Source: Alphaproteobacteria bacterium | GTDB taxonomy: Bacteria > Pseudomonadota > Alphaproteobacteria > JAUHZY01 | Length of the DNA: 64,000 nt | Assembly: GCA_030425825.1 (NCBI GenBank) | Contig: JAUHZY010000001.1 | Coordinates: 512,551-576,550 of the forward strand | Direction of reading: 5' to 3' | Notes under the pieces: model-generated | The model's input: only the letters and a program-made list of their open reading frames with translations | Database searches by the model: none | Told to the model about the DNA's origin: nothing | Translations under genes and position numbers: made by a program | In this document: in pieces, positions 1 to 33,318 of the stretch | How positions within the stretch are numbered: the first letter of the stretch is position 1 | Layout: the number at the start of each line of letters is the position of its first letter

Positions 1-2809
1 CGTCGGTGGATCTGGTAATGATATTATTGGCGGTGATTATGGCGATAATACGCTGATTGGTGGCGCTGGTAACGATTCGATTTACGCTGGGCGCGCAGAG
101 GGCTATGTCGGTGAAGGTGAGTACGACGCACACAGATACGGCTCAACGACAAGTAATTTTGACGGATCAAATGATTATCTTGAATTAGGTGATGTCACAT
201 ACCTGGATGGTGAAACAGACCTTACGCTTGCGGCTTGGGTTACACCAACTAATGTCACTGGCGATAACCCTATTTTTGATAAGTTCTGGGACGGCTCGCA
301 ATCGAGTTTTTATACCTGGATTCGCAATGGTGATGTTCAAGCATATGTAAAACTGACAGATGGTAGTGTACACACACTGAACGCTGGGATGAGTTTGGAT
401 GTAAACAATACCTATCATGTTGCCATGGTCCTGGATAGCAGCGCGACCCGATTTAGTTTGTATGTTGATGGCGTTGAGAAAGATTTTGCGACAACGACAG
501 GCGTAGGGCTTCAAGGAAACGCAGAGGTTTTCCACCTGGGTGAAGGATATACAGGAAATGATTATAATGGTGGTATTGCAGGCGCTGGAATCTGGTCAAA
601 AGATTTAAGTTCAGCTGAAGTAAACGCTTTAATCAGTGACCCTACAAACATCCCAACGGATAATTTAGAAGCTTTTTATGCTTTTTCTGAAGGAGAAGGA
701 CACACCGTTTTCGATCTTTCTGGAAATGGTCGTCACGGTATATTGAAAAACATAACATCATCAAGTTTTTGGGATGATGTATCACAAGGTAACTATCACC
801 ATAACGCTGACAAAGGCTTTAGTGAACTGACATGGTTTGATGAAGTAGATGATTACATTCGATTAGACGGCGGAAGCGACATCAATATTGGCAAAGTCAA
901 CACGGTGAATATGTGGTTGTCATGGGACGCAAGTGAGCATGCTGGTACGCAAGCCTATCATCTTTCAGGTGGTGCGGATCACCAATATGTTTTGTACGGC
1001 TACACAGGCGGTATTTATTACCGTCCTCAAAGTGGCGGTCCAGCAGTTGGTTTTGTTGATGCAGGTTTTGGTGTTGATAATGAATTACACATGCTTAGTT
1101 TTGTCCGTAATGGGACGAATGTCGATTATTATCGTGACGGCGTGTATATTGATACGAAGACACTTGCCAACAACACATATGATACTGCAGTTCGTTCAAT
1201 TGGAACAAGCTCAGGGTCACGTATGCATGAAGGCTTGGCGCCTGACCTTGCCTTGTTTAATACAGATCTGACAGCCGACCAAATCACAGAAATATACAAT
1301 AATGGCAAACTTTTTGATGCCACAGGACACAGCGCGAGCGCGAATCTGGTGGCTCAATTCCGTGATGGTGGTTCGGCTGGGTATAGTGATCTGACAGGAA
1401 CGTATACCAATATTGTGGCGCAAGGGTCCCCCGAAACAATTAAAGTGCCAGGTGTTTTTGTTGGTGACGATGATGTTTTAGGGTTTGATCAGCTGAATCC
1501 AAAGCAACCTTGGAGCAACGGTGCCGAAACGTCAATCGACAACCAAGACCCAAGCAGCGGTAATAACAGCCTAGTCGGTGGCGACGGCAATGACACGCTG
1601 ATTGGAAATGATGGTCGTGATACATTCGTAGCAGGTGATGGTGATGATTGGATCGAGGCTGGTGTCGGGGGCAGTAGTTATACATTAGGGGCCGAGCTTG
1701 TTACCAATGGTAGCTTTGAAACAGACCTGACGGGGTGGTCTGATGTATTGACACCTGACAAGGCTCAAGAAGCGATCGCAGGTCGCACAGCAATGCGGAT
1801 AAATGATGATGACGTCAGCAACCGTGAAGGTGTGCGTGATTCGATTACAGGTTTGTCGTCTGGGTCATCTTACCAGCTTTCAGGGTGGGTTTATAAGTCA
1901 TCCGTCAATCCAGGTGCTGGAACACTTGATAAGGCGGTTTATTTTGAACTTGGCGTGATAAATTCACCAAATTTTGAATACACTCTTAATGCTTTCGATA
2001 CATGGGAGTATTTTTCGATTCAAATGATTGCAGGGTCTTCAAATCTTGATCTTGATCTTTTTGCAACCAGATATAACAACGCGCATACAGGAACGGCTTA
2101 TTTTGACGATGTTTCTTTGAAGCTGCTGACACATGGAACGACGGCAGATAACAGCATTCTTGGTGGATCTGGCGCAGATACGATCATTGGTGATGTTGCT
2201 AATGATATAATTAGCGCTGGATCAGGTAACGACTCTATAATTTCTAATGCTGGAAATGATACGATTGATGGTGGATTAGGAAACGACTCTATTAATGTTG
2301 GTATGGGTGCTGACAGTGTTGCTGGTGGTGATGGTAACGATAGCATTGACGGTGGCGATGGTGATGATGTTATCAGGGCAGGCGCTGGAAATGATGAGCT
2401 AACAGGCGGTGCCAGCGCGGACGAGTTCCACTTTGATTATGTGTTTTCTGCTTTTGACGGCGTTTCACGCGACAAGCTAACAGCCAGCTTTAGTGGTGAT
2501 GGATTCGATATTATTACGGACTTTTCAACGGATGATTCATTGCATATCTCTGTTGATAATATTGGTGGTGCACGCGTCAACAGTGCGGGCGACTTGCAAA
2601 CTTATGGTCCATCGGCGATATTTGTATCTGTTTCCAGCTCGACCGAGATTCACATTAACCTTGATGACTTGACGGGCACAGGCACAGGAAACCACGAGAT
2701 TGTGTTACAGAACCAGTCTAACATCACAGCAGGCTGGCAAGGTACGTTGCAAGAGTTTGCGGACGAACATGGTACATATGAGATTTACTTTAATGGGGTG
2801 GCGATTTAG
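1..2809 (+). CDS. 5'-truncated RTX-type adhesin/toxin-like protein with two LamG_3 (concanavalin-like) modules, a CBM_4_9-like module and a C-terminal run of GGxGxDxxx calcium-binding repeats. The frame is open from base 2, so the gene starts upstream of the window.
   Basis: Frame-2 translation has no stop from nt 2. Nonapeptide repeats GGSGNDIIGG, GGAGNDSIY at the window start and GGSGADTIIGDVANDIISAGSGNDSII...GGDGNDSIDGGDGDD near the C-terminus. LamG_3 signature AFYAFSEGEGHTVFDLSGNGRHG. GSFETDLTGWS is typical of CBM4/9-like modules. Confidence 0.8.
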   Translation, partial: VGGSGNDIIGGDYGDNTLIGGAGNDSIYAGRAEGYVGEGEYDAHRYGSTTSNFDGSNDYLELGDVTYLDGETDLTLAAWVTPTNVTGDNPIFDKFWDGSQSSFYTWIRNGDVQAYVKLTDGSVHTLNAGMSLDVNNTYHVAMVLDSSATRFSLYVDGVEKDFATTTGVGLQGNAEVFHLGEGYTGNDYNGGIAGAGIWSKDLSSAEVNALISDPTNIPTDNLEAFYAFSEGEGHTVFDLSGNGRHGILKNITSSSFWDDVSQGNYHHNADKGFSELTWFDEVDDYIRLDGGSDINIGKVNTVNMWLSWDASEHAGTQAYHLSGGADHQYVLYGYTGGIYYRPQSGGPAVGFVDAGFGVDNELHMLSFVRNGTNVDYYRDGVYIDTKTLANNTYDTAVRSIGTSSGSRMHEGLAPDLALFNTDLTADQITEIYNNGKLFDATGHSASANLVAQFRDGGSAGYSDLTGTYTNIVAQGSPETIKVPGVFVGDDDVLGFDQLNPKQPWSNGAETSIDNQDPSSGNNSLVGGDGNDTLIGNDGRDTFVAGDGDDWIEAGVGGSSYTLGAELVTNGSFETDLTGWSDVLTPDKAQEAIAGRTAMRINDDDVSNREGVRDSITGLSSGSSYQLSGWVYKSSVNPGAGTLDKAVYFELGVINSPNFEYTLNAFDTWEYFSIQMIAGSSNLDLDLFATRYNNAHTGTAYFDDVSLKLLTHGTTADNSILGGSGADTIIGDVANDIISAGSGNDSIISNAGNDTIDGGLGNDSINVGMGADSVAGGDGNDSIDGGDGDDVIRAGAGNDELTGGASADEFHFDYVFSAFDGVSRDKLTASFSGDGFDIITDFSTDDSLHISVDNIGGARVNSAGDLQTYGPSAIFVSVSSSTEIHINLDDLTGTGTGNHEIVLQNQSNITAGWQGTLQEFADEHGTYEIYFNGVAI

Positions 2810-2997: not shown

Positions 2998-4488
2998 ATG
3001 AGTGTATTTGGTGCGATGACGACGGGTGTATCTGGGCTGAAAGGCTTTGGCGGCGCTTTGAATCATATCTCTGAGAATATATCGAATGTGACGACCTTGG
3101 GTTACAAGCGTGTTGAGACACGTTTTTCAACGCTTGTAACGACGTCGACATCACGAGTTCATAATGCAGGTGGTGCGAATATTAAGCCTTCTTTCAGGAT
3201 CAGCTCTCAGGGTCTTCAACAACAATCTGACGTATCGACACACTTATCTGTAACAGGTGAAGGGATGTTTACGGTCACAGATCAATTGCCTGTTTCTGCG
3301 ATTACATCTTATGGTCGGAACTCGTTTTATACGCGTGCGGGTGATTTTATTGTTGATCAAGATGGGTATTTGAAAAACGGTGCGGGATATTATCTGCAGG
3401 GTTGGACAACAGATTCAAGTGGTGATGTGATTAACACCTCGCAATTGGCACCATTGCGTGTCACAGATATTGTTGATGCACCAATGCAGACAACAACGAT
3501 TGATTATAATGTGAATGTGCCATCCGGGGCACCACAGCCCGCTGCAGCTGATCTTGCGGCGGCAGCAAATCCAGCAGCGATTACAGGGGATAGCACTCAC
3601 CCATCTTATGATTCTGTTTTTGGCCCGAACCAAATTTTGGTTTATGACTCACTTGGTGGCGAGCATTCGATGACGCTTGATTGGACAAAAGTTCCTGCTG
3701 CGAACGCTGTTGGCGCAGGGTCTGCTTTTGGGAACAATGCGAATCCTAATAAATGGCTTGTTTCAATGACACCTACAACAAGTTTGGCAGGTGCGACAAT
3801 TACAACACGTTTTACAACAGAGGCTAGTGGGGTGCCTGCGGACTTAGCACAGCGAGAAATCGGTGTTGAGTTTGCTGCCGATGGATCTATTGTTGGGATG
3901 TGGAAAAACGAAGATGCAAATGTATATGGCGCCGGTGGTTGGGGATCAATGATTGCATTGCCTTCAGCGGCAGTTGAATTAGATCTAACATATGGTGGCA
4001 CATATCTACCAACAAGCCCACAAACAATCACCATTGATTTTGGCACCTTGAATGCAACATCAGGCTCAACAACACAGTGGAACGAGCCAGATATTTCGAT
4101 CAGAAACTTCTTGCAGGATGGCAACCCTGCTGGTGCGGTTGAAAATATTGATATTGATGGCGAAGGTCTGATCAATCTGAATTTTGATAATGGTAATTCA
4201 ACGCCACGCTATAAAATTCCTATTGCACGTTTTGCAAACTATAATGGCCTTCAACTGATCGACGGCAATGCCTACCTTGCAACCAGCTTTTCTGGTGATG
4301 CCTTTTATGCAGCAGCAGGCGATAACGGGCTGGGAACAATTACATCAAATAATCTTGAGCTGTCGAATGTTGATTTGGCAGACGAGTTCACAAAAATGAT
4401 CGTTGTACAAAGAGCTTACAGCGGCAATGCACGTGTCGTGACAATCGCTGCGCAATTGCTGGAAGAAGTCACCGCAATTACACGATAA
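2998..4488 (+). CDS. flgE: flagellar hook protein FlgE
   Basis: N-terminus MSVFGAMTTGVSGLKGFGGALNHISENISNVTTLGYKR and C-terminus SNVDLADEFTKMIVVQRAYSGNARVVTIAAQLLEEV match the conserved rod/hook terminal segments. A 496-aa length fits a hook protein. Confidence 0.85.
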   Translation: MSVFGAMTTGVSGLKGFGGALNHISENISNVTTLGYKRVETRFSTLVTTSTSRVHNAGGANIKPSFRISSQGLQQQSDVSTHLSVTGEGMFTVTDQLPVSAITSYGRNSFYTRAGDFIVDQDGYLKNGAGYYLQGWTTDSSGDVINTSQLAPLRVTDIVDAPMQTTTIDYNVNVPSGAPQPAAADLAAAANPAAITGDSTHPSYDSVFGPNQILVYDSLGGEHSMTLDWTKVPAANAVGAGSAFGNNANPNKWLVSMTPTTSLAGATITTRFTTEASGVPADLAQREIGVEFAADGSIVGMWKNEDANVYGAGGWGSMIALPSAAVELDLTYGGTYLPTSPQTITIDFGTLNATSGSTTQWNEPDISIRNFLQDGNPAGAVENIDIDGEGLINLNFDNGNSTPRYKIPIARFANYNGLQLIDGNAYLATSFSGDAFYAAAGDNGLGTITSNNLELSNVDLADEFTKMIVVQRAYSGNARVVTIAAQLLEEVTAITR

Positions 4489-9459: not shown

Positions 9460-9468
9460 AGTCTGGCT

Positions 9469-11241: not shown

Positions 11242-11333
11242 AGTTTTCCAATATAAAAAATAAGTTGACAGCTTTTGTGTTTTGATCTAAAAAGGATACA
11301 AATAAGAATCATCAAAATAAATCAGGGCTGGGA

Positions 11334-11603: not shown

Positions 11604-11615
11604 AGGAAATAAAAA

Positions 11616-13511: not shown

Positions 13512-13523
13512 AGGAGTTATAAA

Positions 13524-15177: not shown

Positions 15178-15178
15178 G

Positions 15179-16720: not shown

Positions 16721-17645
16721 TGCAGAACAAATCTTGGTCAAAGCAGGGTTTGATATGCAAGAACCTTATTCTGAATTGAATGACTTTATTGCTTGTGAAG
16801 GCTTTAAAAAAATAACAGTTGGCGACCTTAATGGTATTGATGACATTATTTTAAAGCATCGCGCAGAAGGGTACGGTGTTGTTGTCAAATACACGCCAGA
16901 CCAAAAAGGTTTTTGCGCGATACGCAATTATGATGATGGCAGAAAGCAAGAATATCGTTTCGGACACGATGGCAAGGCATTAGGCTTTGAGTATTCTGAA
17001 AACAATAAAGTGACAGCATATTTGATTTGCTCGAATGAAGATGATGATGACTTTAGGCTTGGTCAACAGACACTGGATGACACAATCGTGCCGCCACGCG
17101 ACAATTCGTATTTGTTTGAATTTAAAAATGAAAAAAATGGAGAAGAAGCGATTTTCTTTGTTTCGGAAGGCAAAAAAGAACCAGACGTTATTTCATTAAA
17201 ACAGAAAAACTATCAAGTTGATTATGGTCCTAATGGCGAGCTGTGGAATTTTGACTTAAAGAAGAAAGACAGAACATTCCCTGTTGTTATCAAAAATGGT
17301 GAAGCTGTCAGCGTTAGGAAAGCAGGATCAAATCTTAGTGAGGCTTTGTATGATGCAGAATGCGCAGCACATCGATTAAAAGACCTAGGTATTAGAATGC
17401 CGCAGAGCTTGAATCAGAACATTTTTGCTTATGTTTTTAATGGGTTAGTAAATCTTGTGCGTCCAAAATCTGCGATGACAAGTGTGCTTGTCGTAGGAGC
17501 ATTTAACGCAAATGCCACACGCGTTGAAATGCCTGAAATATCACAAGGTATTGCTTGCCAAGCATATGATCAAACGTCACAGCAAGATAATGTTCAAGAT
17601 GCAAAATCTGTCAATTATCCCATGTCACGCGATCGTACTTTGTAA
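16698..17645 (+). CDS. hypothetical protein, paralogous repeat family (about 315 aa)
   Basis: EYRFGHDGKALGFEYSENNKVTAY motif. The start (16680, 16698 or 16704) is ambiguous. Confidence 0.45.
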   Translation: MKMFTANDAEQILVKAGFDMQEPYSELNDFIACEGFKKITVGDLNGIDDIILKHRAEGYGVVVKYTPDQKGFCAIRNYDDGRKQEYRFGHDGKALGFEYSENNKVTAYLICSNEDDDDFRLGQQTLDDTIVPPRDNSYLFEFKNEKNGEEAIFFVSEGKKEPDVISLKQKNYQVDYGPNGELWNFDLKKKDRTFPVVIKNGEAVSVRKAGSNLSEALYDAECAAHRLKDLGIRMPQSLNQNIFAYVFNGLVNLVRPKSAMTSVLVVGAFNANATRVEMPEISQGIACQAYDQTSQQDNVQDAKSVNYPMSRDRTL

Positions 17646-17673
17646 GCATATCTTTGCGTTTCTCATGCTGAAG

Positions 17674-18183
17674 TTAGATCAAGCCATAATACATTGCTAA
17701 ATGTTCAAGGGCCAGGCGCAGTGTTGTCATACCTTCGATTTGGGCTGTGCGTCCTTTGCGTCCTTTCAAAGTGGCCCAATCACCCGCAGTATCTTCTAGA
17801 CAACAAACATGTATCAAGATAGGAGACAATGCGCGCCCTATATCTCGGATTGTTGTGCGAAAGCGTTCTTGTGCTTCTAGTCGTGACTCGGTTTCTGATC
17901 CTTGGCTGCTTGCCAGGCGTCCTGTCATAAGTGTTTTATAGCTTGCCGTCATTTTGGGCGATAAGCCTGCATAAAGAAAATCAGCATGCAGTTTTTTGCC
18001 GGCTTCATATTGAAACTTTGTAATTTGGTCGCGGCGGAAATAGCGTTCTAATGGCGCAGATGTCATATTTCTTGCGCGGCTTTGACCATTTTTAGGGGTC
18101 TCTACAATCATCTCAAAATGTTGTGCCATATATGCGCTGCCGTAATCATTTGCGTGAGATTGTATATGGGGTGTATGGGACAT
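17674..18183 (-). CDS. hypothetical protein (169 aa), phage-like early region
   Basis: ORF in a minus-strand block that also contains an XRE regulator. Confidence 0.4.
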   Translation of the reverse strand: MSHTPHIQSHANDYGSAYMAQHFEMIVETPKNGQSRARNMTSAPLERYFRRDQITKFQYEAGKKLHADFLYAGLSPKMTASYKTLMTGRLASSQGSETESRLEAQERFRTTIRDIGRALSPILIHVCCLEDTAGDWATLKGRKGRTAQIEGMTTLRLALEHLAMYYGLI

Positions 18184-18241
18184 TTCATTCTCCTTTTGGT
18201 TTCGTCTTCAGATGCCAGCATGGCTTTGTTATGTGCGGGGT

Positions 18242-18835
18242 TTATGCCTTTTTAATATCAAAATCTAACTCGCGGACCATGGGGTAGTGCTTGCGAATGA
18301 TTAAAAGGAGCAAGTCCCCGTAATTTGTTTGGCACCACCGGCGGTTTAGGTCTTTATCAAATTGTAATACGGCATTTTCACCTGTGATTTTCAAATGTGC
18401 TTTTTGCAACCAGCTGCGAAACTTTGCGATTTCTAAATGCTCGAGCAAGTCGCGTTTCCATGGTTCAGAAATGCTTTCAGGTTGTATGCGGGTTTGATGG
18501 ACTTGGCAAGCTTCCACAATTTTGCCAACAGTGGGCCAGCGATACGTTGTGTTTTCTTTTACAACGTCTCGCCAACCTTGACGGAGCGCGTCATGAGGGA
18601 TATGCGAAAGGGCCTCAATATACGCGTTGGCGATAATGGCAGATTGCTGATTCAATTCTTTTTCATCAGCCATGATAGGGGGGTAATACATAATCAGCAT
18701 TTCAAGCAAAACAGTATCCCAAATTTTTTGCAGTTTTTCTTTGTCCAAGCAAAGAGATTCTAAAAGACGTTTTGTCGTCATAAGATCAGGTTTATAGCGG
18801 ACCCTATGTGATTTTGCGGTAGATTTCAAAGTCAT
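18242..18835 (-). CDS. hypothetical protein (197 aa)
   Basis: ORF only. Confidence 0.4.
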   Translation of the reverse strand: MTLKSTAKSHRVRYKPDLMTTKRLLESLCLDKEKLQKIWDTVLLEMLIMYYPPIMADEKELNQQSAIIANAYIEALSHIPHDALRQGWRDVVKENTTYRWPTVGKIVEACQVHQTRIQPESISEPWKRDLLEHLEIAKFRSWLQKAHLKITGENAVLQFDKDLNRRWCQTNYGDLLLLIIRKHYPMVRELDFDIKKA

Positions 18836-19376
18836 TGATTTCCTCCTTTACGGCATGATCTGTATTTATATTTTTATAAGTATCTTCTTTATGTATTGTG
18901 CGTTTGTTTGTGTGTGAGTTTGTGTTTGATGACGTGTTCGAGCGCCTTGCCATTGCTGTCATTGGCGCAGTTGATAATCTGTGTGAATCATTGTGTGCAG
19001 GTTTGAAAAGGTGATCCTTATAATCTGTAATTGTTAAAACCGTTCCCTGCACTTTGTGTGCGTCTAAACTTGCAAGGTTGCTTTGTTGAATGCGCTTTAA
19101 AAACATGCGTGCTTTGTGCTCGGTAATATCAAATAAAGAAGCAATAAGGCGCGATGTAATATAAAGTTGACCTGCTTTTAGCTGGATGACGCGTGTCGAA
19201 GGCTGGGTAAGAGAAATCTCAAAGTCTTCCCAAGCCGCCATTTCGCATATCCACCCCCAAATTGCAGATTCGGTCATGTCTTTGAAAATGGGATTATACC
19301 ATTTGTCTCGAAATGTCTTTGTGAAACCACGACGTGGATAATAAGGAGGTGGTAACGGCTTTTTATAATACATCAT
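18804..19376 (-). CDS. hypothetical protein with a possible winged-helix DNA-binding segment (190 aa); possible phage replication-associated protein
   Basis: GQLYITSRLIASLFDITEHKARMFLKRIQQ resembles HTH segments of phage replication initiators. The match is weak. Confidence 0.35.
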   Translation of the reverse strand: MMYYKKPLPPPYYPRRGFTKTFRDKWYNPIFKDMTESAIWGWICEMAAWEDFEISLTQPSTRVIQLKAGQLYITSRLIASLFDITEHKARMFLKRIQQSNLASLDAHKVQGTVLTITDYKDHLFKPAHNDSHRLSTAPMTAMARRSNTSSNTNSHTNKRTIHKEDTYKNINTDHAVKEEINDFEIYRKIT

Positions 19377-19382
19377 CTGCCC

Positions 19383-19625
19383 CTAGTCGTTGCGTTCGCG
19401 CAGTAATAAGTCATAACCCAGTGCATTTACGCAGGCTTCAAAGTTCATCAAATTAGGCGTGCCATTCCCGTGTTCCCAAATCAGAACGGCGTTTCTATTA
19501 AGCCCTGCATGTTTTGCCAGTCTCTCTTGAGAAACATTCTTTTTTTTGCGAAGCTCATGAAGCTTGCGTATAAGAGGGTGGTTACTTTTGCAGATACCGC
19601 GCTTTTTTGTGTTTTTTTGAGTCAT
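19383..19625 (-). CDS. XRE-family (Cro/CI-type) HTH transcriptional regulator
   Basis: KKNVSQERLAKHAGLNRNAVLIWEHGNGTPNLMNFEACVNALGYDL is a canonical HTH_XRE pattern. 80 aa. Confidence 0.65.
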   Translation of the reverse strand: MTQKNTKKRGICKSNHPLIRKLHELRKKKNVSQERLAKHAGLNRNAVLIWEHGNGTPNLMNFEACVNALGYDLLLRERND

Positions 19626-19884
19626 TTAAGACCTCCTCTGTTTGATAGGTTAAGTAGTCTCGCCAGTGGTGGCGATAGTTAAGAAAAGATTTTTTTAATC
19701 CTTCTTTTAGTAGATCTTCTTCTTCAGGAGACAAACAGCATTTCTTCAAAAAGCGTAAATTATGAATATTTTTTATGATCTCAGATTTCCACATTTTTGC
19801 CATAACTTGAGATTTATAGCCTTTGTGTTGCCCGCTTAGGTGGCGTGGAATGCGTCCGTCATATTTTAAACTTAATGTGTTCAT
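19582..19884 (-). CDS. hypothetical protein (100 aa)
   Basis: ORF overlapping the XRE gene start. Uncertain. Confidence 0.3.
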   Translation of the reverse strand: MNTLSLKYDGRIPRHLSGQHKGYKSQVMAKMWKSEIIKNIHNLRFLKKCCLSPEEEDLLKEGLKKSFLNYRHHWRDYLTYQTEEVLNDSKKHKKARYLQK

Positions 19885-20188
19885 ATCCTTCTTCCTTGAG
19901 CAACAAATTGCAATAAATGCAACCTGCGCGTCAAGAGAAAATGACTATGACCGTATAAGTTTCAAAATGTAAATAATAAAGAATATTTGTTACTTATATA
20001 TTAAATATCAACTACTTAAAGTTAAGACTTTATTGTGATGTTTAAGATGTTTTCCTATAAAAAGCAGGGGAACTTTTTTTATACAATTTCATTTTGCGCA
20101 ATTTATAATTGTATAAATTTCATAGTGAGATAAAATATTTCTTAATTTGAGAATTCATGTTCTTGGATAGGTTTGCTGGGAATAGGGG

Positions 20189-21649
20189 TTATAGACCTTG
20201 TAGTAATTGTAAAATAGCATTCTCGTGTTGCGCAGCAAATGACAGGTTATTGATTTGCAGCTGACTGCGTGTTTGAAGTGATAGGTTGTTGGCTGCTTCT
20301 TCTTCTAAATCGGCAAGAGTCAGTTTGTCACCGGCTTCCAGGTTGACGTTAGACACCTGGTCAGCAAACGAAAAGCGATTTTGCAAAATGCCATAATCAG
20401 ACACAAAATAAGCTTCTGCTGCATCAATACGGTCAAGCGCACCATTAATTTGATTCAATGTCGTTTGTATGTTTGCATCTGTAAAATCGACAGTCCGTAA
20501 AGATAAAATCACAGTGCGTAAATCAAAATTATCAATAAGGTGGTTCGTATCTTTGCTAAGTCGTATATCAATGTGATCCTCGTACTCAAGCGAAGCATCA
20601 ACAATGTCGGGGTTTCCATAGGCCGCAATATAGTTGTCAGGAACATTCCCTGCCATGTCTACATATCCATTGGGCAGATCGCCACGAAATGCTGCAACCA
20701 AGTTGTTTGCTTGTGAATGTTCTGGTGCATCAAGAATATTACCACCATTATAAAGCTCTGTAATCTCAGCAGGCGTAAGGTCGGTTGAAAACAGATCAAC
20801 TTCGGGAATTGTTCCCATATGGCGTCTTGTCGCTTGCGTCGTGCTCATGCCTGTCATTTCTGTGCTTATGCCCGCGCCGGCAGGGATAACTTGGGGCGCG
20901 CCAACCTGGACACCATTACGGTAATAAGTAACTGTGGCACCATTTCTAACAAAGCTCATCATATGTAGGTTGCCATCATCCACGCCAACATCATTGGGGA
21001 AAACAACAAAGCTTGATCCGCCGTTAGCTCTGTAATAAATATCATCGCCGGCCATATAAATAAGATAGCCGTTAGCGTTGTTGTTAGATAAAGGGTAGGA
21101 TTGGTTTGCAGCATTAGGCTCATACGACATCCACATATTGACAGTGTTTGTTGTCCCTAAGTCAATCGGATTGCCGCCATTGTTATCCACACGCACATAG
21201 TCATCAACGCCATCATATTGTGGGCCACCAACATCGTCTGTTAAAAGGTTTATGCCATCTTTGTTTGAATCAAGTAAAATATCATCATATTCACGCAGCA
21301 ATTTGTTCGCATCAGGTTCTAGCAGTACAGCATCAGCTTCGCTGAGATTAAGCGCTTGTGTTGCTAGCCCTTTTACAGCTTCCATCACAGTTCTTGCTGC
21401 GGTAATGCCATTTTGTGTGACTTGTAATGTTGAAATGCCTTGGCCGATAGCGTCTTTGCGGCTCAGCATAAAGCTGGATGTATCGTATTGTGTCTCTGAC
21501 AAAAAATAGGCAGGGGCGTTGTCTAGAACCTCTGCAACTTTTTTTCCTGTCGCAAGACGTGCATCAGTTCTGTCGATATATTGTTGTGTTCTTCGAAGGG
21601 CAATTAGTGCGTTACGAGATGCCTCACTTAATCTGATTGAATCAACCAT
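20189..21649 (-). CDS. fliC: flagellin with a LamG_3 (concanavalin-like) module replacing the hypervariable domain
   Basis: Flagellin N-terminus (NALIALRRTQ...RLATGKKV...DNAPAY) and C-terminus (LTLADLEEEAANNLSLQTRSQLQINNLSFAAQHENAILQLLQGL). The central segment YDGVDDYVRVDNNGG...NTVNMWMSY...LHMMSFVRNGATVTYYRNGV...FSTDLTPAEITELYNGGNILDAPEHSQANNLVAAFRGD is homologous to RTX residues FDEVDDYIRLDGG...AQFRDG. GAGG RBS. Confidence 0.8.
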   Translation of the reverse strand: MVDSIRLSEASRNALIALRRTQQYIDRTDARLATGKKVAEVLDNAPAYFLSETQYDTSSFMLSRKDAIGQGISTLQVTQNGITAARTVMEAVKGLATQALNLSEADAVLLEPDANKLLREYDDILLDSNKDGINLLTDDVGGPQYDGVDDYVRVDNNGGNPIDLGTTNTVNMWMSYEPNAANQSYPLSNNNANGYLIYMAGDDIYYRANGGSSFVVFPNDVGVDDGNLHMMSFVRNGATVTYYRNGVQVGAPQVIPAGAGISTEMTGMSTTQATRRHMGTIPEVDLFSTDLTPAEITELYNGGNILDAPEHSQANNLVAAFRGDLPNGYVDMAGNVPDNYIAAYGNPDIVDASLEYEDHIDIRLSKDTNHLIDNFDLRTVILSLRTVDFTDANIQTTLNQINGALDRIDAAEAYFVSDYGILQNRFSFADQVSNVNLEAGDKLTLADLEEEAANNLSLQTRSQLQINNLSFAAQHENAILQLLQGL

Positions 21650-21694
21650 TTAAACCTCGTCTAAAATAAATCAAAATATACCTTGTGTCTGTCA

Positions 21695-21710
21695 TGCATA
21701 TTTTGTGCCA
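21695..21710 (-). promoter_or_regulatory. sigma-54 type promoter (-24/-12) for fliC1
   Basis: Minus-strand sequence TTGGCACaaaatATGCA matches TGGCAC-N5-TTGCA, about 45 bp upstream of the fliC1 ATG. Confidence 0.45.
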
Positions 21711-21756
21711 AAGTTTCTTATGTGTTTTATGCGTTATCTTGTTTGGAAGAGGGCGC

Positions 21757-23238
21757 TTATGACCTGCCCCCAAACAAGATATCAATCAAGTTCTGTATTG
21801 ATCGGTTTGAGTTCGTCATTGAGAAAATGCTCAATTGCTCACGTGTCTCAAGAGCCAATCTATTCGCAGATTCTTCTTCTAAATCTGCCAGCGTCAGTTT
21901 ATCGCCTGCTTCTTCATGCGTGTTGATCAGATCTTCTGTGAACTCAAGGCGGGTTTGTAATAATGCAAAGTCTGTTGCAAAGCTGGCAGCAGTGCTGTCA
22001 ATCCTATTCAGGGCAGCGTCAAGTCCATCAAGTGTGGCGTCTAAACCTGCGGAAGAAAAATCAACACCCACAATCCCTAATGAGAAAGTTCGCATATCAA
22101 CAGAGTGAATTGTGTGTGTTGTGTTGTCACTAAAATCAACGATCAGATCTTCTGCATACTCACCTGCTGTCGGCGCATCTGTGTTGGCCCAGAAATCAGA
22201 TAAGTTTGCATTTTGAATCGTGCCATCATTTCCATTTCCTGAGCTGTCATATGCTGTCGTACCATTTCCTTCGTCTAATGGCCAATAACCTTCTAGGCTG
22301 GATCCTGGAATAGCGCCACTGGTGTAAAGTGTTGCGACTTCTGATGGTGTAAGCGCTTCATTCCAGAGGCCTGTATTGGACATAGACCCCTCAAAAAATG
22401 GCCCGCCTGGCTTCAAGGCACCAATTGTCATATCAACAGTGGGATTGTGCATTGATGTAATGGGGTCATCGTCGTTCATAACAACAGCAGCCTCTGCGCC
22501 ATCAACATACAATCTTAAGTCACCATTATCCCAAGTGAAGCCTACATGGTGCCAATTGCCGTCATTAATAGGAACGGTTGTCTCATAGTTCTTGCTTGTT
22601 CCATAAGTGCCATCACCACTAATCAAGACATTAAGCTCACCAGATGCTGTCAGGCCTAGATAAAATCCTCTTTGATTTCCACCTTGTTCATAATGGCCTG
22701 TCATATATGATGATGTGTCTGTTGTTTGTACCCAAGTAAAGTTTGATAAATCGGTTAAGCTATGGCCAATATCTCCAACGTTTATGTGATCATTTACTCC
22801 ATCAAATGTTGCGACAAAATCTTCTTCAACAAGTAAGTTTGTGCCGTTCATATGCGTATCAGCAATAAGGTTGTTATACTCACCCAGTAGTTTATTAGCT
22901 TGCGCTTCTAGGATGGTTCTCTGTGCTGCAGATGCATTGCGCGCTTCTTCAGCCAGACCCTTGACCTGCTCAATGATGGCGCGACCACTGGTCAGGCCAT
23001 GCTGCGTTGCTTTCAACGTACTGATCGCTTGATCAATATCGTCTTTGCGTTTCAGTAGGCTATCCGCCTTGTCATAAAGGCCCTTCGCTTTGAAGTACTC
23101 AACAGGACCGTCCAGAATGTCGTTGACCTTCTTACCTGTCGCCAGGCGCTTCTCAACAGTCGCTGTCAGATCCTTGATCTGTTGATGGTTCAACAAGCTG
23201 TTTCTCATCGCGGAAGTGAGCTTAATGTCATTGATCAT
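21757..23238 (-). CDS. fliC: flagellin with a LamG_3 module replacing the hypervariable domain
   Basis: Start MINDIKLTSAMRNSLLNHQQ preceded by a GGAGGTGGG RBS. The ORF-track start at 23292 lacks an RBS. Flagellin N and C termini (LTLADLEEESANRLALETREQLSI). The insert FDGVNDHINVGD...LYVDGAEA...LEGYWPLDEGNGTTAYDSSGNGNDGT is homologous to the first LamG module of the RTX protein. Confidence 0.8.
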   Translation of the reverse strand: MINDIKLTSAMRNSLLNHQQIKDLTATVEKRLATGKKVNDILDGPVEYFKAKGLYDKADSLLKRKDDIDQAISTLKATQHGLTSGRAIIEQVKGLAEEARNASAAQRTILEAQANKLLGEYNNLIADTHMNGTNLLVEEDFVATFDGVNDHINVGDIGHSLTDLSNFTWVQTTDTSSYMTGHYEQGGNQRGFYLGLTASGELNVLISGDGTYGTSKNYETTVPINDGNWHHVGFTWDNGDLRLYVDGAEAAVVMNDDDPITSMHNPTVDMTIGALKPGGPFFEGSMSNTGLWNEALTPSEVATLYTSGAIPGSSLEGYWPLDEGNGTTAYDSSGNGNDGTIQNANLSDFWANTDAPTAGEYAEDLIVDFSDNTTHTIHSVDMRTFSLGIVGVDFSSAGLDATLDGLDAALNRIDSTAASFATDFALLQTRLEFTEDLINTHEEAGDKLTLADLEEESANRLALETREQLSIFSMTNSNRSIQNLIDILFGGRS

Positions 23239-23470
23239 GACCCACCTCCATATGCTAGAGCAACATCTCGCGATGAGCTTATGATACGCCACGCGCTACG
23301 CGCTTCGGCTATGAGGGCGGAAGTGAGCTTAATGTCATTGATCATGACCCACCTCCATACGTTAGAGCAACATCTCGCGATGAGATGATGATACGCCACG
23401 CGCTACGCGCTTCGGCTATGAGGGCGGAAGTGAGTTTAATGTCATTGATCATGACCCACCTCCATATGTT
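23205..23470. repeat. tandem direct repeat of about 107 bp x3 (about 2.5 copies), spanning the fliC2 RBS, start codon and first 8 codons
   Basis: gcggaagtgagcttaatgtcattgatcatgacccacctccatatg...cgcttcggctatgagg recurs starting at 23211, 23318 and 23424 with a few substitutions. Confidence 0.85.
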
Positions 23471-23811: not shown

Positions 23812-24519
23812 TTATAGATAGCTGAATTGGGCGATAATACGTCCTTTGACCTGAATATTTTCAGGTGTACAGCAGTAATCTTCATAATTTGGGTTGTTGC
23901 AAGAAACCTTAAGGGTGCTAGATGATTGGTTTGTTAGAAGTTCTAGGCGCTTTATACGATAACCAACATCATCCCAAACAAGAAAAAAACCAGGAGGGCT
24001 GGGCTGGCAGTTAAGCGTATCAACCAACACCTTTGTACCCAAGGGAAGCTGAGGCGACATGCCGTCATCTCGGACTGTCATCATAAATAAGTACTTTAGG
24101 CTTGTCTTCGTTCTATTTTCAATAAAGTTAAGAGGAAGTTGCCAGTGGTTCACAGCATTGCAAGAGGGGTCTTCTAGATCAGAAAAATCGTTGATTTCCT
24201 GGATGGTTATCATTTTCTGATAAGGGTTTTCAAAGGCAACAGCCTCTTCACGAACAGCATTGTTGTTGGCTTCAAAATAGCTGGTGCTAATATTAATGCC
24301 TGCATGATGCATGACATCTGGAATGGAGGCGTCTATAAAAGCAGCGATAGAGCCCATTTCATGTAAGCGCAATTGTCGGTTGCCTTTAAGCATTCGAGAG
24401 ACTGCAGATGGTTCTATGTTGAGGTGTTTCGCAAGGTCAGCCTGTGTTTTACCTTGGTTTTTCAGTTTTGTTTTAAACCATCTTGCGTCCATAAAAACTT
24501 CCCATGATTTGTTGCTCAT
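23812..24519 (-). CDS. cI/LexA-like repressor: N-terminal XRE HTH plus C-terminal S24 peptidase domain
   Basis: GKTQADLAKHLNIEPSAVSRMLKG (HTH). The C-terminal GMSPQLPLGTKVLVD...VGYRIKRL pattern is typical of S24 self-cleaving repressors. The start may instead be at 24492 (MDARWF). Confidence 0.7.
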   Translation of the reverse strand: MSNKSWEVFMDARWFKTKLKNQGKTQADLAKHLNIEPSAVSRMLKGNRQLRLHEMGSIAAFIDASIPDVMHHAGINISTSYFEANNNAVREEAVAFENPYQKMITIQEINDFSDLEDPSCNAVNHWQLPLNFIENRTKTSLKYLFMMTVRDDGMSPQLPLGTKVLVDTLNCQPSPPGFFLVWDDVGYRIKRLELLTNQSSSTLKVSCNNPNYEDYCCTPENIQVKGRIIAQFSYL

Positions 24520-24742: not shown

Positions 24743-26476
24743 TTAGAACTTATACGTCAAACCCATAGAAAAGACTGGGTATATATCAGCGCCAGCAATA
24801 TCTTCTTCGATTTTTGCTTCTTCAGCTGCCAAGCTTGCTTGGAAAGTTGGATCATTTGCGGCTGTTCCGTTGCTTGTGAAGGCAATATCAGCAGAGCCGC
24901 TGAACAAAACCCCAAGGCGACTGTTAAAGCTAAGCCCTGTGCCAAGAATGCCATTGTCATAAAATGTTGAGTCAAAGCCAACGCCAACATATGGCGCAAA
25001 GTCATCAAAGCTTGCTTTGCCGTTTAAGGTGCCAACTTCTGATGCTGTATAAATTGTGCCACCCAGGTCGTATGTGCTGCTTGGGTCGGATATTAAGGTT
25101 GCTTCATTGCCGTTCCAGTAAATTCCTGCAGACATGTTAAACCCTGATTTAAAGGGATGCCACTCTGCCACGACACCAAGGTTAGAAAGGTCTAGATCCA
25201 AGTCGTAATCGACATCATCATAAGATTCGCTCATTGAGTGGCTAAATGCGTTTGCACCTGCGCGTAAAACCCACCTTGGACTGATATGTGCCATCAAGTC
25301 ACCACCAGCGCCGAGCGTTCCCACTGAAAGTGCTAGGGCATAACGTGTGTCGAAGTCTTCATCGCTTTCGCCATACTCAACGAATTTAACATCTTCTGTT
25401 TCATACTCATATTTCTTAATGCTTAACTGAGCGTGCTTTGGAATATGGTCTAGGCTTTGAACCTTTTTCACACGTCCCTGTGCATCACGGTAAAACTCAT
25501 GACGACCTTGCCCTTCTTTGCTGGGCATCAAAACAGGCTGTGAAGGTAATTGGCGAGAAGGCTGCAACATGGGCGCATAAGCAGGATGCATGGCCACGGG
25601 AGGGGCATAACCTGGGCGCATTTGATGAAATTGACCGCCATACATGTCAGTTTGTGGCGGCATTTGTTGTTGTGGTTGAGATTGCCTTTGTTGATAAGGG
25701 TCTTGTCGATAACCATAATCTATCTGCGGCTGTTGGGCGCGATGCTGTGTCACATCTTGGACGATTTGTGTCGTGTTCATTGGTTGATCAGACGCACCTT
25801 GCTTTTTCCATGCAGGCTTTGCTGATTCGACATACTGATTTTGAGGTTGGTAAGAGGGCTTTTGGCGTACTTGCAGCGGTGATCCCGTATTCATTTGATG
25901 CATAGGTGGGTTTCCTGACATTGCATCTGGACGCTGTAATCTTTGGTCGCGTTGCTCAACAGCTCTGTTCATCCAGTTTTTACGCTGCGTAGGCGGCACA
26001 TAAAAAGGTTTTTGAGATGTGTTTGTGCGCTCAGAAAATCTTAAATTATTAGATGAGGATGATCTTTTAAACTCTTGAAATTCTTGTCGACTTCTCTCGA
26101 TATAGCTGTCCACTTTTCTTTGAGGTGAAGTGTTTGAAGCAAGTGCCGTATTCGCAGATGAGTACGGCACTTTATTAGGGCGCTCAGATATGGGCAGTGT
26201 GTTAGAAGCATCTGGGCGCGCCGAATATGTTTGTATGTTTTTTTGATAGCTAGGCGTTGGATAGCCTGTGTTATATCCTTGTGCTGTGGCGATATCATCA
26301 CAAACCAATAAAAGGAAAAAAGCGATAGCAACAACTCTGGAAATGCTTATTCCAGCAGAAGATATTCTTTTAAGCTGTTGAAGTTTAAGGAACAAATTGA
26401 TCTCCAAGAAATAAGAGGCATGCGATATGAAATTCTGGATGAGAAAGAAGATACTAAAAAACCGACCTTTAGGCAA
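24743..26476 (-). CDS. secreted outer-membrane beta-barrel protein with a long P/Q-rich linker
   Basis: C-terminal alternating beta pattern ending GLTYKF with a terminal Phe. The signal-peptide-like segment KRISSAGISISRVVAIAFFLLLVCDDIATAQG is internal to the ORF-track model, so the likely start is a TTG near 26395 with a GGAG RBS. Q/P-rich middle region. Confidence 0.5.
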   Translation of the reverse strand: MPKGRFFSIFFLIQNFISHASYFLEINLFLKLQQLKRISSAGISISRVVAIAFFLLLVCDDIATAQGYNTGYPTPSYQKNIQTYSARPDASNTLPISERPNKVPYSSANTALASNTSPQRKVDSYIERSRQEFQEFKRSSSSNNLRFSERTNTSQKPFYVPPTQRKNWMNRAVEQRDQRLQRPDAMSGNPPMHQMNTGSPLQVRQKPSYQPQNQYVESAKPAWKKQGASDQPMNTTQIVQDVTQHRAQQPQIDYGYRQDPYQQRQSQPQQQMPPQTDMYGGQFHQMRPGYAPPVAMHPAYAPMLQPSRQLPSQPVLMPSKEGQGRHEFYRDAQGRVKKVQSLDHIPKHAQLSIKKYEYETEDVKFVEYGESDEDFDTRYALALSVGTLGAGGDLMAHISPRWVLRAGANAFSHSMSESYDDVDYDLDLDLSNLGVVAEWHPFKSGFNMSAGIYWNGNEATLISDPSSTYDLGGTIYTASEVGTLNGKASFDDFAPYVGVGFDSTFYDNGILGTGLSFNSRLGVLFSGSADIAFTSNGTAANDPTFQASLAAEEAKIEEDIAGADIYPVFSMGLTYKF

Positions 26477-26512
26477 TCTGTTTTTCCAGACAATGCCGCA
26501 TCAAGATAACCC

Positions 26513-27085
26513 TTAACGTCCGTATTTCTGAATAAACCCCTCTGCTTGCATGATTTTATGATATTGTGAAGGGGAAAGATTATTGTAATTCAATTGTATA
26601 TCAATGTTTTCAATGCCGCTGTTAGTGTACTCGGTGTATTTTGTTGGTAGCATAGACCCAGATTCGTACTCCACTTCGATTAAACTGTCGACAGTTGATA
26701 GAAGGAGATGTCCTGAATCAAGCTCTTGAAAGTTACCAATTTCTAAACGGTAAAGCGTATAATGTTCATCAGAGCTGTTGCCTTGAATCTCAATCAGGCT
26801 TTTTCTTCGCATCACACCATTTGTTGTATCAAATTTAGAAAATCGAAAGAAATCTTCTTTCTGACCATCGCTTTCGGTAATGCTTGTCTTTGAATCTTGG
26901 CAAGAGTCTAAGAGAGATTTTTCAAAAGGGCGTATAGAGGAAGCATTGTCGCTAACGCTTTGAGAGCTTTCAGAAACAAGCTTGGAAGCATTGCAGCCCA
27001 TCATTAGAATGATGCTTGTCAGGCCACCCCATAATATTGATGTATATTTCATTTTCGCACCTTTTTTCTTTTTTAATAGCATCAA
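26513..27085 (-). CDS. putative lipoprotein
   Basis: MKYTSILWGGLTSIILMMGC has lipobox LMMGC. The likely start is the Met at 27052. Confidence 0.5.
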   Translation of the reverse strand: MMLLKKKKGAKMKYTSILWGGLTSIILMMGCNASKLVSESSQSVSDNASSIRPFEKSLLDSCQDSKTSITESDGQKEDFFRFSKFDTTNGVMRRKSLIEIQGNSSDEHYTLYRLEIGNFQELDSGHLLLSTVDSLIEVEYESGSMLPTKYTEYTNSGIENIDIQLNYNNLSPSQYHKIMQAEGFIQKYGR

Positions 27086-27317
27086 TAATCCTATATGGCA
27101 ACAATTTTGACTTGTTTTACTGCCTTATGATAGGGGTGCGCTTTGTTTAACCGCGTTAATAGATATTTCCTTGAAGGTTTATATAAAACAAGCAGACCAA
27201 AAAATCACAAAAGTTAATGTGCTTAAAAAATAGTCATATTATCTCTTTTCCTATTCCGAGAAATATGTTATAGTCCATGACCCATATTGGTTAAAAGATG
27301 TTTGAGAGAGAGTTTTT

Positions 27318-27989: not shown

Positions 27990-28040
27990 CTGTATTGCGT
28001 AAGTAAAATAAACATAAAAACATTAAATGGCACAAAATAA

Positions 28041-31070: not shown

Positions 31071-31074
31071 CGTG

Positions 31075-33210: not shown

Positions 33211-33318
33211 GAGGGCACTCTAACACTTTGTCTTTCAGAAGGCCAGAGGCAGGTTGCCGATAGAAATGTTGCTTTATGGATAATGTTAGGTTAAAAGGGT
33301 TTTGAAAAGGAAAATAAA

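What the first reader, a model, noticed from the sequence alone, without database searches (positions are those of the whole stretch)
20189..23238. Two tandem flagellins whose variable domain is replaced by LamG lectin-like modules homologous to, and in the same order as, those of the neighbouring RTX adhesin
Both flagellin ORFs keep canonical flagellin N- and C-terminal polymerisation segments. Their central regions are LamG_3 (concanavalin-like) modules. The fliC2 insert (FDGVNDHINVGD...LYVDGAEA...GLWNEALTPSEVATLY...LEGYWPLDEGNGTTAYDSSGNGNDGT) aligns with LamG module 1 of the RTX protein at 1-2809 (FDGSNDYLELGD...LYVDGVEK...GIWSKDLSSAEVNALIS...LEAFYAFSEGEGHTVFDLSGNGRHG). The fliC1 insert (YDGVDDYVRVDNNGG...NTVNMWMSY...LHMMSFVRNGATVTYYRNGV...LVAAFRGD) aligns with module 2 (FDEVDDYIRLDGG...NTVNMWLSW...LHMLSFVRNGTNVDYYRDGV...LVAQFRDG). 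Gene order fliC2 then fliC1 matches module order in the RTX gene. This suggests domain transfer between an adhesin and the flagellar filament, which would give a lectin-decorated and possibly adhesive flagellum. Enzymatic flagellins such as flagellinolysin are known, but I do not recognise lectin-type flagellins paired with an adhesin donor gene.
Basis: partly seen in the sequence, partly recalled or inferred. Interest (0 to 1): 0.9.

Follow-up and report, generated by a model that had tools for sequence, protein, structure and literature searches.

The report
Flagellins displaying LamG domains shared with prophage proteins
Two adjacent flagellin genes carry a LamG jelly-roll domain as their surface-exposed part, and the closest relatives of those domains are in phage-type virion proteins and an RTX protein of the same bacterium, which shows where flagellar surface domains can be recruited from.

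Summary

- The fliC1 insert is specifically related to RTX module 2 (42% identity, 142 bits). Nothing closer was found among 1.84 billion representative proteins.
- The fliC2 insert is only generically similar to RTX module 1 (29%, 62 bits). Its true relatives are module 1 of P0131, a protein of the same genome, and of P0126 (45-46% identity, 100% bootstrap). P0126 lies in a podovirus-like contig from a sequencing run (ERR3428545) that also holds a contig identical to part of this window.
- The matching gene and module order carries no statistical weight.
- Synonymous sites are saturated, so the sharing is ancient.

The genome has at least five flagellin paralogues with swapped outer domains: three LamG and two beta-propeller. 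LamG flagellins are not unique. About 90 protein clusters occur in alphaproteobacterial MAGs, but with the LamG at a different insertion site, so they arose independently. No paper describing them was found.

Verdict: a new variant of a known kind (flagellins with co-opted outer domains). Lectin or adhesive function is untested.

The parts
20189..21649 (-). fliC1: 486-aa flagellin with a type-B LamG outer domain
21239..21649 (-). fliC1 N-terminal D0/D1 helices (aa 1-137)
   Evidence: Helices 9-34, 45-100 and 104-127, with pLDDT mostly about 83-96 across the helices.
20594..21238 (-). fliC1 LamG module (aa 138-352), type B
20192..20593 (-). fliC1 linker and hairpin segment plus C-terminal D1/D0 helices (aa 353-486)
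   Evidence: Helices 391-444 and 448-485. The segment 346-382 has low confidence.
21757..23238 (-). fliC2: 493-aa flagellin with a type-A LamG outer domain. The start is the ATG at 23238, not the upstream GTG.
   Evidence: Its N terminus is identical to paralogues P0003-P0005. The AlphaFold D0/D1 helices have pLDDT mostly above 83 (blocks 83-98), but the insert has low confidence. The C terminus hits S. meliloti FlaA (7sn9) at E 1.4e-9.
22123..22827 (-). fliC2 LamG module plus trailing linker (aa 138-372), type A
   Evidence: 46% identity and 191 bits to P0131 residues 59-265. 45% identity to P0126 residues 70-276. Only 29% identity and 62 bits to RTX module 1. NJ bootstrap 100% with P0126 and P0131 module 1.
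23210..23468 (-). 107-bp tandem repeat (2.4 copies, 96% matches) that duplicates the ribosome-binding site and the first 10 codons of fliC2. It creates two 36-codon upstream ORFs whose TGA stops overlap the next ATG.
21695..21710 (-). Sigma-54-like TGGCAC-N5-ATGCA site, 46 nt upstream of the fliC1 start. Possible promoter only.
   Evidence: There are 4 matches in the window against 3.7 expected by chance, so only the position is suggestive.
2..2809 (+). C-terminal 935 aa of an RTX-repeat exoprotein, cut by the window start. It has 2 LamG_3 modules, a CBM_4_9-like region and RTX nonapeptide repeats.
137..814 (+). RTX LamG module 1 (aa 46-271). A generic LamG, not specifically related to fliC2.
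815..1474 (+). RTX LamG module 2 (aa 272-491), type B. Closest known relative of the fliC1 insert.
2998..4488 (+). flgE hook protein. Shows that flagellar apparatus genes are present.
   Evidence: Pfam. NCBIfam FlgE at 290.8 bits.
23812..24519 (-). CI/LexA-like phage repressor immediately upstream of fliC2
   Evidence: Pfam HTH_3 plus Peptidase_S24. phrog_4 transcriptional repressor at E 4e-19.
18804..19625 (-). Small HTH protein and a DnaD-like helicase loader immediately downstream of fliC1. These are phage-type early genes.

Best explanation
fliC1 and fliC2 are genuine filament flagellins of an unnamed, deep-branching alphaproteobacterium. They belong to a family of at least five flagellin paralogues. 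The polymerising D0/D1 helices are conserved, while the surface-exposed outer domain is a swappable cassette: LamG in fliC1, fliC2 and P0003, and a beta-propeller in P0004 and P0005.

The LamG cassettes come from a lineage-specific pool of LamG_3 modules. Each module runs from an 'FDG' start through the core to a trailing strand or linker. The same pool builds multi-module phage-type virion proteins (P0126, P0131, P0133) and an RTX exoprotein.
- fliC2 carries a type-A module, sister to module 1 of the phage-type proteins.
- fliC1 carries a type-B module, nearest to RTX module 2.

The modules were recruited long ago by recombination at module boundaries, between helix ND1b and the D1 beta-hairpin segment. 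The direction of transfer is unknown.

Shown here: the identity of the genes, the domain architecture, the fold, the module relationships and the age of the sharing.

Inferred: the proteins assemble into filaments and display thousands of LamG domains on the surface. These most likely act as a binding layer for glycans or surfaces, as LamG, pentraxin and CBM40-type folds do in secreted and phage proteins. My estimate that binding is the selected function is about 0.4. Otherwise the LamG layer serves as a structural or antigenic variant coat.
- Paralogue family: P0002-P0005 have near-identical termini and different centres.
- Module types and nearest neighbours: all-against-all BLAST, NJ bootstrap, alignments A5 and A6.
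- Lineage specificity: an exhaustive phmmer search found no outside relative above 34% identity. IMG/VR relatives reach only 24-36%.
- P0131 and P0133 are on the same 1.66 Mb contig.
- P0126 lies in a podovirus-like contig with a major head protein and tail tubular proteins A and B.
- Age: synonymous positions are saturated.
- Independent origin from the MAG LamG flagellins: the ND1b motif lies after the LamG in 61 of 62 of those proteins, but before it in fliC2.
- General precedent: Fields et al. 2024 (PMC11532411) describe 682 structural clusters of flagellin outer domains and suggest co-option from other proteins.
Against: - There are no expression, assembly or binding data.
- Pfam Flagellin_C is below threshold.
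- The fliC2 insert was modelled with low confidence.
- The fliC1 plus RTX module 2 sister grouping has only 48% bootstrap.
- The window's RTX protein was absent from the exhaustive library. That library is therefore not complete for this genome, and closer relatives could be missing.
- P0131 and P0133 are called phage-type only by homology to P0126. Their own loci could not be fetched.
- The flagellin pair is flanked by phage-type regulatory and replication genes, so it may itself be prophage cargo rather than core flagellar genes.
Confidence: 0.75

Rival explanations
1. Both flagellin inserts were copied from the neighbouring RTX adhesin, module 1 into fliC2 and module 2 into fliC1, preserving order and giving an adhesive lectin flagellum.
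For: The fliC1 insert is most similar to RTX module 2. The fliC2 insert has a significant but weak match to RTX module 1.
Against: - The fliC2 insert is far closer to P0131 and P0126 module 1 (191 and 181 bits against 62 bits; 100% bootstrap).
- The best partner of RTX module 1 is P0131 module 2, not fliC2.
- RTX module 2 is as close to P0126 module 2 (143 bits) as to fliC1 (142 bits).
- Order agreement between two items has a 50% chance.
- No nucleotide-level signal remains.
Confidence: 0.12
2. The flagellin pair is prophage cargo. A temperate phage carries its own flagellin isoforms and remodels the host filament, as in the flagellin-remodelling prophages of Enterobacter. This would also explain why the outer domains resemble phage virion modules.
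For: - A CI-like repressor lies directly upstream. A small HTH protein, a DnaD-like loader and a DUF6456 protein lie directly downstream, all on the same strand.
- The window is rich in phage genes: terminase, SU10 portal and GH108.
- The type-A module is shared with a podovirus-like contig.
- Prophage-encoded flagellins exist (PMC13418256).
Against: - No integrase, tRNA or att-like boundary was found.
- No TnpB/TldR-like protein occurs among the neighbours.
- ORFs 7147-18835 have no PHROG hits.
- fliC2 shares near-identical termini with three other paralogues elsewhere in the genome.
- No sequenced phage encodes a relative.
Confidence: 0.12
3. The proteins are not filament subunits. They would be FlgL-like junction proteins, or flagellar-T3SS-secreted LamG proteins that do not polymerise.
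For: Pfam Flagellin_N is only just above threshold and Flagellin_C is below it. Some database relatives are labelled 'flagellin-like hook-associated protein FlgL'.
Against: - NCBIfam flagellin subfamilies score 72-92 bits against 21 bits for FlgL.
- Full-length D0 and D1 helices are predicted with high confidence.
- Five paralogues with hypervariable centres is flagellin behaviour.
Confidence: 0.06
4. The insert-to-RTX similarity is just the generic resemblance shared by any two LamG_3 domains, with no specific relationship.
For: This holds for fliC2 against RTX module 1: 62 bits, less than the 78.5 bits fliC2 scores against the generic Pfam model.
Against: It is false for fliC1 against RTX module 2: 142 bits and 42% identity, with shared motifs NTVNMW, LHM.SFVRNG and NLVA.FR. 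The best of 1.84 billion outside representatives reaches 113 bits and 34% identity, and that hit is P0126, from a sequencing run that also yields a contig identical to part of this window.
Confidence: 0.03

Closest known systems
Flagellins with co-opted outer domains, as surveyed by Fields et al. 2024 (PMC11532411). That survey reports 682 structural clusters, including peptidase (flagellinolysin), pectate-lyase-like and WD40 clusters.
   Same: A conserved D0/D1 core with a foreign globular domain displayed on the filament surface. The outer domain has non-flagellar homologues, which suggests co-option. The paralogues P0004 and P0005 carry a beta-propeller, comparable to the WD40 cluster.
   Different: A LamG or jelly-roll outer domain is not named in the main text of that survey. 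Here the donor-like relatives are identifiable in the same genome and sample, at 42-46% identity.
LamG-containing flagellins of alphaproteobacterial MAGs. These are about 505-535 aa, from Rhodospirillales and other Alphaproteobacteria. NCBI names some of them 'LamG-like jellyroll fold domain-containing protein'.
   Same: Flagellin_N plus Laminin_G_3 architecture in the same broad flagellin subfamily, with the 'RLATGKKVNSALD' and 'LTLADLNEE' motifs.
   Different: In the MAG family the LamG sits between ND1a and ND1b (61 of 62 scored). In fliC2 it sits after ND1b, and alignment A4 places the fliC1 insert at the same point. The LamG sequences are only 18-28% identical to the window's inserts. This indicates independent acquisition.
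Flagellinolysin, the proteolytic flagellins (Eckhard et al. 2017, PMC5595980)
   Same: A functional non-flagellar domain is inserted in the hypervariable region and displayed in thousands of copies.
   Different: No HExxH peptidase domain is present here. The insert is a non-enzymatic binding-type fold, and no activity has been shown.
Prophage-encoded flagellin FliC-P with TldR (Walker et al. 2026, PMC13418256)
   Same: Flagellin isoforms linked to temperate-phage genes. The paralogues differ in their outer domains.
   Different: No TldR/TnpB-like gene lies nearby. Prophage residence of the pair is unproven. The link to phage here is homology of the outer domain to virion proteins, which that work does not describe.
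Central-region recombination in enterobacterial H-antigen flagellins (Hu and Reeves 2020, PMC7018530)
   Same: Conserved termini with laterally exchanged hypervariable centres. Multiple alleles or paralogues share their ends.
   Different: Here whole foreign domains of different folds are exchanged among paralogues within a single genome.

Membership tests
Bacterial flagellin (FliC/Fla) | N-terminal D0/D1 helical region (PF00669) | tested here: met
   27.4 bits for fliC1 and 33.1 bits for fliC2, against a cut-off of 26.6. Helices are predicted with pLDDT mostly about 83-98.
Bacterial flagellin (FliC/Fla) | C-terminal D1/D0 helical region (PF00700) | tested here: met
Bacterial flagellin (FliC/Fla) | [quoted passage not shown] | tested here: met
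Bacterial flagellin (FliC/Fla) | Polymerises into the flagellar filament | not testable with these tools
   This needs filament proteomics or cryo-EM. The only support here is the presence of flgE in the window.
Laminin_G_3 / concanavalin A-like lectin-glucanase superfamily | Profile match above the gathering score | tested here: met
   43 bits for fliC1 and 78.5 bits for fliC2, against a cut-off of 27.6.
Laminin_G_3 / concanavalin A-like lectin-glucanase superfamily | Beta-sandwich jelly-roll fold | tested here: met
Laminin_G_3 / concanavalin A-like lectin-glucanase superfamily | Carbohydrate or Ca2+-dependent ligand binding (true lectin activity) | not testable with these tools
   The fold alone does not establish binding. 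A glycan array or binding assay is needed.
MAG LamG-flagellin family | LamG inserted in the ND1a-ND1b loop | tested here: not met
   The ND1b motif follows the LamG in 61 of 62 scored family members but precedes it in fliC2.
MAG LamG-flagellin family | LamG sequence of the family subtype | tested here: not met
   18-28% identity and 27-41 bits to P0090, P0102 and P0111. Those three are 40-45% identical to each other.
Flagellinolysin (enzymatic flagellin) | Metallopeptidase (HExxH) domain in the hypervariable region | tested here: not met
   There is no peptidase family hit at E up to 0.1.
Flagellin-remodelling prophage (FliC-P with TldR) | Adjacent TnpB-like nuclease-dead repressor with guide RNA | tested here: not met
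   No TnpB or OrfB-type hit occurs in any neighbouring ORF by Pfam or PHROGs. The guide RNA was not searched for.
Flagellin-remodelling prophage (FliC-P with TldR) | Flagellin gene located inside a prophage | tested here: inconclusive
   A CI-like repressor and a DnaD-like loader flank the pair. No integrase, tRNA or boundary was found.
   This holds for fliC1 (RTX module 2, 142 bits). It does not hold for fliC2 (P0131 module 1 at 191 bits against RTX module 1 at 62 bits).

The most novel reading that the evidence does not exclude
Phage virion proteins and the flagellar filament of this bacterium exchange binding modules. Under this reading, a two-module A-B block, as found adjacent in the phage-type protein P0126, entered an ancestral flagellin. 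Tandem duplication and differential loss then split it into fliC2 (A) and fliC1 (B). This would explain why the gene order mirrors the module order.

Alternatively, the flagellin pair is itself prophage cargo that re-coats the host flagellum with phage-type LamG domains. Either way, phage and flagellum would display the same ligand-binding modules and so target the same external ligand. That would be a functional link between virion adsorption modules and flagellar surface chemistry which has not been described.
Probability: 0.15. Interest if true: 0.8.

Novelty: new variant of a known kind. Interest (0 to 1): 0.6.

Why it matters
Flagellin outer domains are extremely diverse, and their origins are usually untraceable. 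Fields et al. 2024 could name cellular homologues for only a few clusters. Here the likely source pool can be identified. The same LamG module types build phage-type virion proteins, an RTX exoprotein and three of five flagellins in one small genome.

This gives a concrete, testable case of how a filament acquires a new surface chemistry. It also points to LamG flagellins, present in about 90 protein clusters from MAGs, as a class for which I found no description in the literature. If the LamG layer binds glycans, the flagellum would act as a multivalent adhesin. If the pair is prophage cargo, it would extend the very recent concept of prophage-driven flagellar remodelling beyond the TldR systems.

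Tried and rejected
- A word-index homologue search with the fliC1 insert alone returned nothing, not even the query itself. I treat this as a tool limitation, not evidence.
- The first genome-contig scan, with the five-paralogue alignment, found no relative. The source genome is therefore not among the species representatives.
- Exact look-ups of P0003 and P0004 found no record. Cluster look-ups returned no names or accessions. The loci of the other paralogues and of P0131 and P0133 could not be examined.
- The afdb50 fold library was unavailable.
- PHROGs gave no hits for ORFs 7147-18835 or for most ORFs 24746-39202.
- tblastn of fliC2 and P0126 against 50,697 phage genomes gave no match.
- Literature searches for LamG, lectin or jelly-roll flagellins found no description. 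The supplements of the 2024 survey are not held. The run accession ERR3428545 appears in no paper.
- The count of sigma-54 sites is not above chance. The sigma-70 and terminator scans were unremarkable.
- Rejected interpretations: FlgL, flagellinolysin, membership of the MAG LamG-flagellin family, and recent nucleotide-level transfer from the RTX gene.
Full report
**1. What is at the coordinates**

Two intact ORFs lie head-to-tail on the minus strand. fliC2 runs 21757-23238 and encodes 493 aa from the ATG at 23238. fliC1 runs 20189-21649 and encodes 486 aa. The listed GTG at 23292 is not the real start of fliC2. Three paralogues elsewhere in the genome begin with the same MINDIKLTSAMRN, and a GGAGG ribosome-binding site precedes the ATG at 23238.

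Both proteins pass Pfam Flagellin_N (27.4 and 33.1 bits, cut-off 26.6). Both pass Laminin_G_3 (43 and 78.5 bits, cut-off 27.6). Flagellin_C is below threshold.

The C-terminal D1/D0 region is nevertheless real.
- phmmer against PDB sequences hits Sinorhizobium meliloti FlaA (7sn9) at E 1.4e-9, and Caulobacter FljK, FljM and FljN at about 5e-6 to 3e-5.
- AlphaFold models place long N- and C-terminal helices with pLDDT mostly about 83-98. Mean pLDDT is 72.4 for the fliC2 model and 85.5 for the fliC1 model.

NCBIfam agrees: flagellin subfamilies score 72-92 bits and FlgL scores 21 bits. A hook gene, flgE, lies at 2998-4488. I conclude these are flagellins, not FlgL.

**2. The insert is a LamG jelly roll**

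**3. The relationship to the RTX protein**

The ORF at 2-2809 is the C-terminal 935 aa of an RTX-repeat protein. It contains two LamG_3 modules and a CBM_4_9-like region. It lies 17 kb from the flagellins.

fliC1:
- Residues 144-350 align with RTX residues 278-480 at 41% identity, E 1e-40.
- An exhaustive phmmer search of the fliC1 insert against 1.84 billion representative proteins found only the query itself below E 1e-30. The best other proteins are 26-34% identical.
- RTX module 2, at 42% identity and 142 bits, is therefore the closest known relative.
- Caveat: the RTX protein itself is missing from that library.

fliC2:
- Its match to RTX module 1 is much weaker, at 27-29% identity and 62 bits.
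- That is less than fliC2 scores against the generic Pfam LamG_3 model (78.5 bits).

**4. A better relative for fliC2, and a module pool**

Re-analysing the exhaustive-search hits locally gave three multi-LamG proteins of 1045-1121 aa: P0126, P0131 and P0133. P0131 and P0133 are encoded on the same 1,662,365-bp NCBI contig as the flagellins. P0126 comes from the Logan assembly of run ERR3428545. That run also yielded a contig 100% identical to window 10189-21799.

P0126 sits in a podovirus-like gene set, with a YqaJ exonuclease, a major head protein and tail tubular proteins A and B. P0126 and P0131 also hit a PHROG 'virion structural protein' family through their LamG region.

Delimiting all modules with a local HMM and comparing them all-against-all gives clear types.
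- Type A: P0126 module 1, P0131 module 1 and the fliC2 insert. fliC2 scores 181-191 bits at 45-46% identity over 207 aa, and the grouping has 100% NJ bootstrap.
- Type B: P0126 module 2, P0131 module 3, P0133 module 4, RTX module 2 and the fliC1 insert. fliC1 is nearest to RTX module 2, but that sister pairing has only 48% bootstrap. The type-B clade has 74%.
- RTX module 1 does not belong to type A. Its best partner is P0131 module 2.

Homology between fliC2 and P0131 starts at the 'FDG' motif. It ends after the linker 'YW.LDEG.G..AYDSSGNG..GTI.NA.LS.F', which is exactly one module unit. IMG/VR holds many LamG relatives of type A, but only at 24-36% identity, and almost none of type B. The pool is therefore lineage-specific.

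Codon-level comparison of fliC1 with RTX module 2 gives 38% third-position identity at identical residues. blastn finds only a 23-nt match, at E 0.001, 9 nt out of register with the protein alignment. The sharing is old.

**5. Order**

It also uses the wrong partner for fliC2. Types A and B are directly adjacent, in that order, in P0126, where residues 70-503 are colinear with RTX nucleotides 158-1450. A single A-B block later split between two tandem flagellins therefore cannot be excluded. I keep this as the novel case, not as a conclusion.

**6. Family context**

The homologue search found three more flagellins on the same genome contig. Their N and C termini are nearly identical to those of fliC2, but their centres differ.
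- P0003 carries a divergent LamG_3.
- P0004 and P0005 carry a Lactonase/FG-GAP-type beta-propeller.

fliC1 is the divergent member, at 33% overall identity to fliC2. This is a cassette-like multi-flagellin family.

**7. Are LamG flagellins new?**

A profile search with six LamG flagellins returned about 90 clusters (at 90% identity) of 505-535-aa proteins with PF13385 plus PF00669. They come from MAGs labelled Rhodospirillales, Alphaproteobacteria, Pseudomonadota and Alcanivorax. Some are named 'LamG-like jellyroll fold domain-containing protein' or 'flagellin'. Examples sit as single genes among housekeeping genes.

In that family the LamG lies between helices ND1a and ND1b. The ND1b motif follows the LamG in 61 of 62 scored proteins. 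In fliC2 the motif precedes the LamG, and alignment A4 places the fliC1 insert at the same point. The LamG sequences of the MAG family are also only 18-28% identical to the window's inserts. The architecture therefore arose at least twice.

I found no paper describing LamG flagellins. The 2024 structural survey (PMC11532411) lists peptidase, pectate-lyase-like and WD40 outer domains and argues for co-option from other proteins. It does not name a LamG cluster in its main text.

**8. Surroundings**

fliC2 is preceded by a CI/LexA-like phage repressor at 23812-24519. fliC1 is followed by a small HTH protein, a DnaD-like helicase loader, a protein with a weak, below-threshold DnaA_N match and a DUF6456 protein. 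All of these lie on the same strand. The window also holds a terminase, an SU10-type portal and a GH108 protein.

No integrase, tRNA or TnpB/TldR-like gene was found. Prophage-borne flagellins are now known (PMC13418256), so prophage cargo is a live rival, but it is unproven here.

The organism has no close relative among 185,579 species representatives. Its FlgE is at most 36% identical over its full length (up to about 42% over partial segments) to those of Rickettsiales, Rhodospirillales and other alphaproteobacterial MAGs. Window GC is 40%.

**9. Mechanism**

Shown:
- flagellin identity;
- a LamG outer domain;
- module relationships to phage-type and RTX proteins;
- ancient divergence;
- origin independent of the MAG family.

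Inferred:
- The proteins polymerise, with the LamG domain on the filament surface. This follows from its position between the D1 elements.
- The LamG layer acts as a multivalent binding surface, because relatives of this fold in secreted and phage proteins bind ligands. My estimate for this is about 0.4. The alternative is a structural or antigenic coat.

**10. Verdict**

The finding is best filed as a new variant of a known kind, namely flagellins with co-opted outer domains. Its unusual value is that the likely donor pool of prophage-type virion proteins and an RTX exoprotein is visible in the same genome.

Noticed in passing
window 23210-23468 (-): A 107-bp tandem repeat (2.4 copies, 96% matches) duplicates the ribosome-binding site and the first 10 codons of fliC2. 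It makes two 36-codon upstream ORFs (MINDIKLTSALIAEARSAWRII.SSRDVAL.YGGGS). Their TGA stops overlap the next ATG (ATGA), the last of which is the fliC2 start. The RBS GGAGGUGGGU can pair with codons 6-9 (ACUCACUUCC). This may be a translational control leader, or a scar of recombination among the paralogues.
   Followed up: partly
window 21695-21710 (-): A sigma-54-like TGGCAC-N5-ATGCA site lies 46 nt upstream of the fliC1 start codon, inside the 107-nt fliC2-fliC1 spacer. The number of such sites in the window is not above chance.
   Followed up: partly
outside the window (proteins P0003, P0004, P0005 on the same 1.66 Mb contig): Three further flagellin paralogues have termini almost identical to those of fliC2. 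Their outer domains are a divergent LamG (P0003) and a 7-bladed-propeller-like (Lactonase/FG-GAP) domain (P0004, P0005).
   Followed up: partly
window 47543-51547: Three tandem copies of a convergent gene pair. Each pair has a 253-312-aa protein with a weak phage-lysozyme match on the + strand and a roughly 160-aa partner on the - strand. Copies are 44-72% identical. This could be an effector-immunity array.
   Followed up: partly
window 54365-59726: A second array of paralogous genes alternating on opposite strands. Sel1-repeat proteins of about 280 aa lie on the - strand and proteins of about 275-295 aa lie on the + strand. Copies are 43-61% identical.
   Followed up: partly
window 39339-53605: Phage morphogenesis genes: a large terminase (39339-40715), a 687-aa protein with a GH108 muramidase domain (42667-44730) and an SU10-type portal (51383-53605, 745 bits). 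Most other ORFs in the window have no Pfam, NCBIfam or PHROG match.
   Followed up: partly
window 2-4488: The RTX-repeat LamG protein gene is followed, 189 nt downstream on the same strand, by the hook gene flgE and then by an AsmA-family gene (4574-7141). This is an unusual neighbour for a hook gene.
   Followed up: no
window 36729-37817: A stretch of about 1.1 kb without a long ORF coincides with a local GC rise to 45.6%, against a window mean of 40%. It was not examined for RNA genes.
   Followed up: no
L004 3167-6532 (Logan ERR3428545 contig 55115): The 1121-aa four-LamG protein P0126 lies just upstream of the major head protein gene in a podovirus-like gene order. That is roughly the position where a portal gene would be expected. 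Its role in the virion is unknown.
   Followed up: partly
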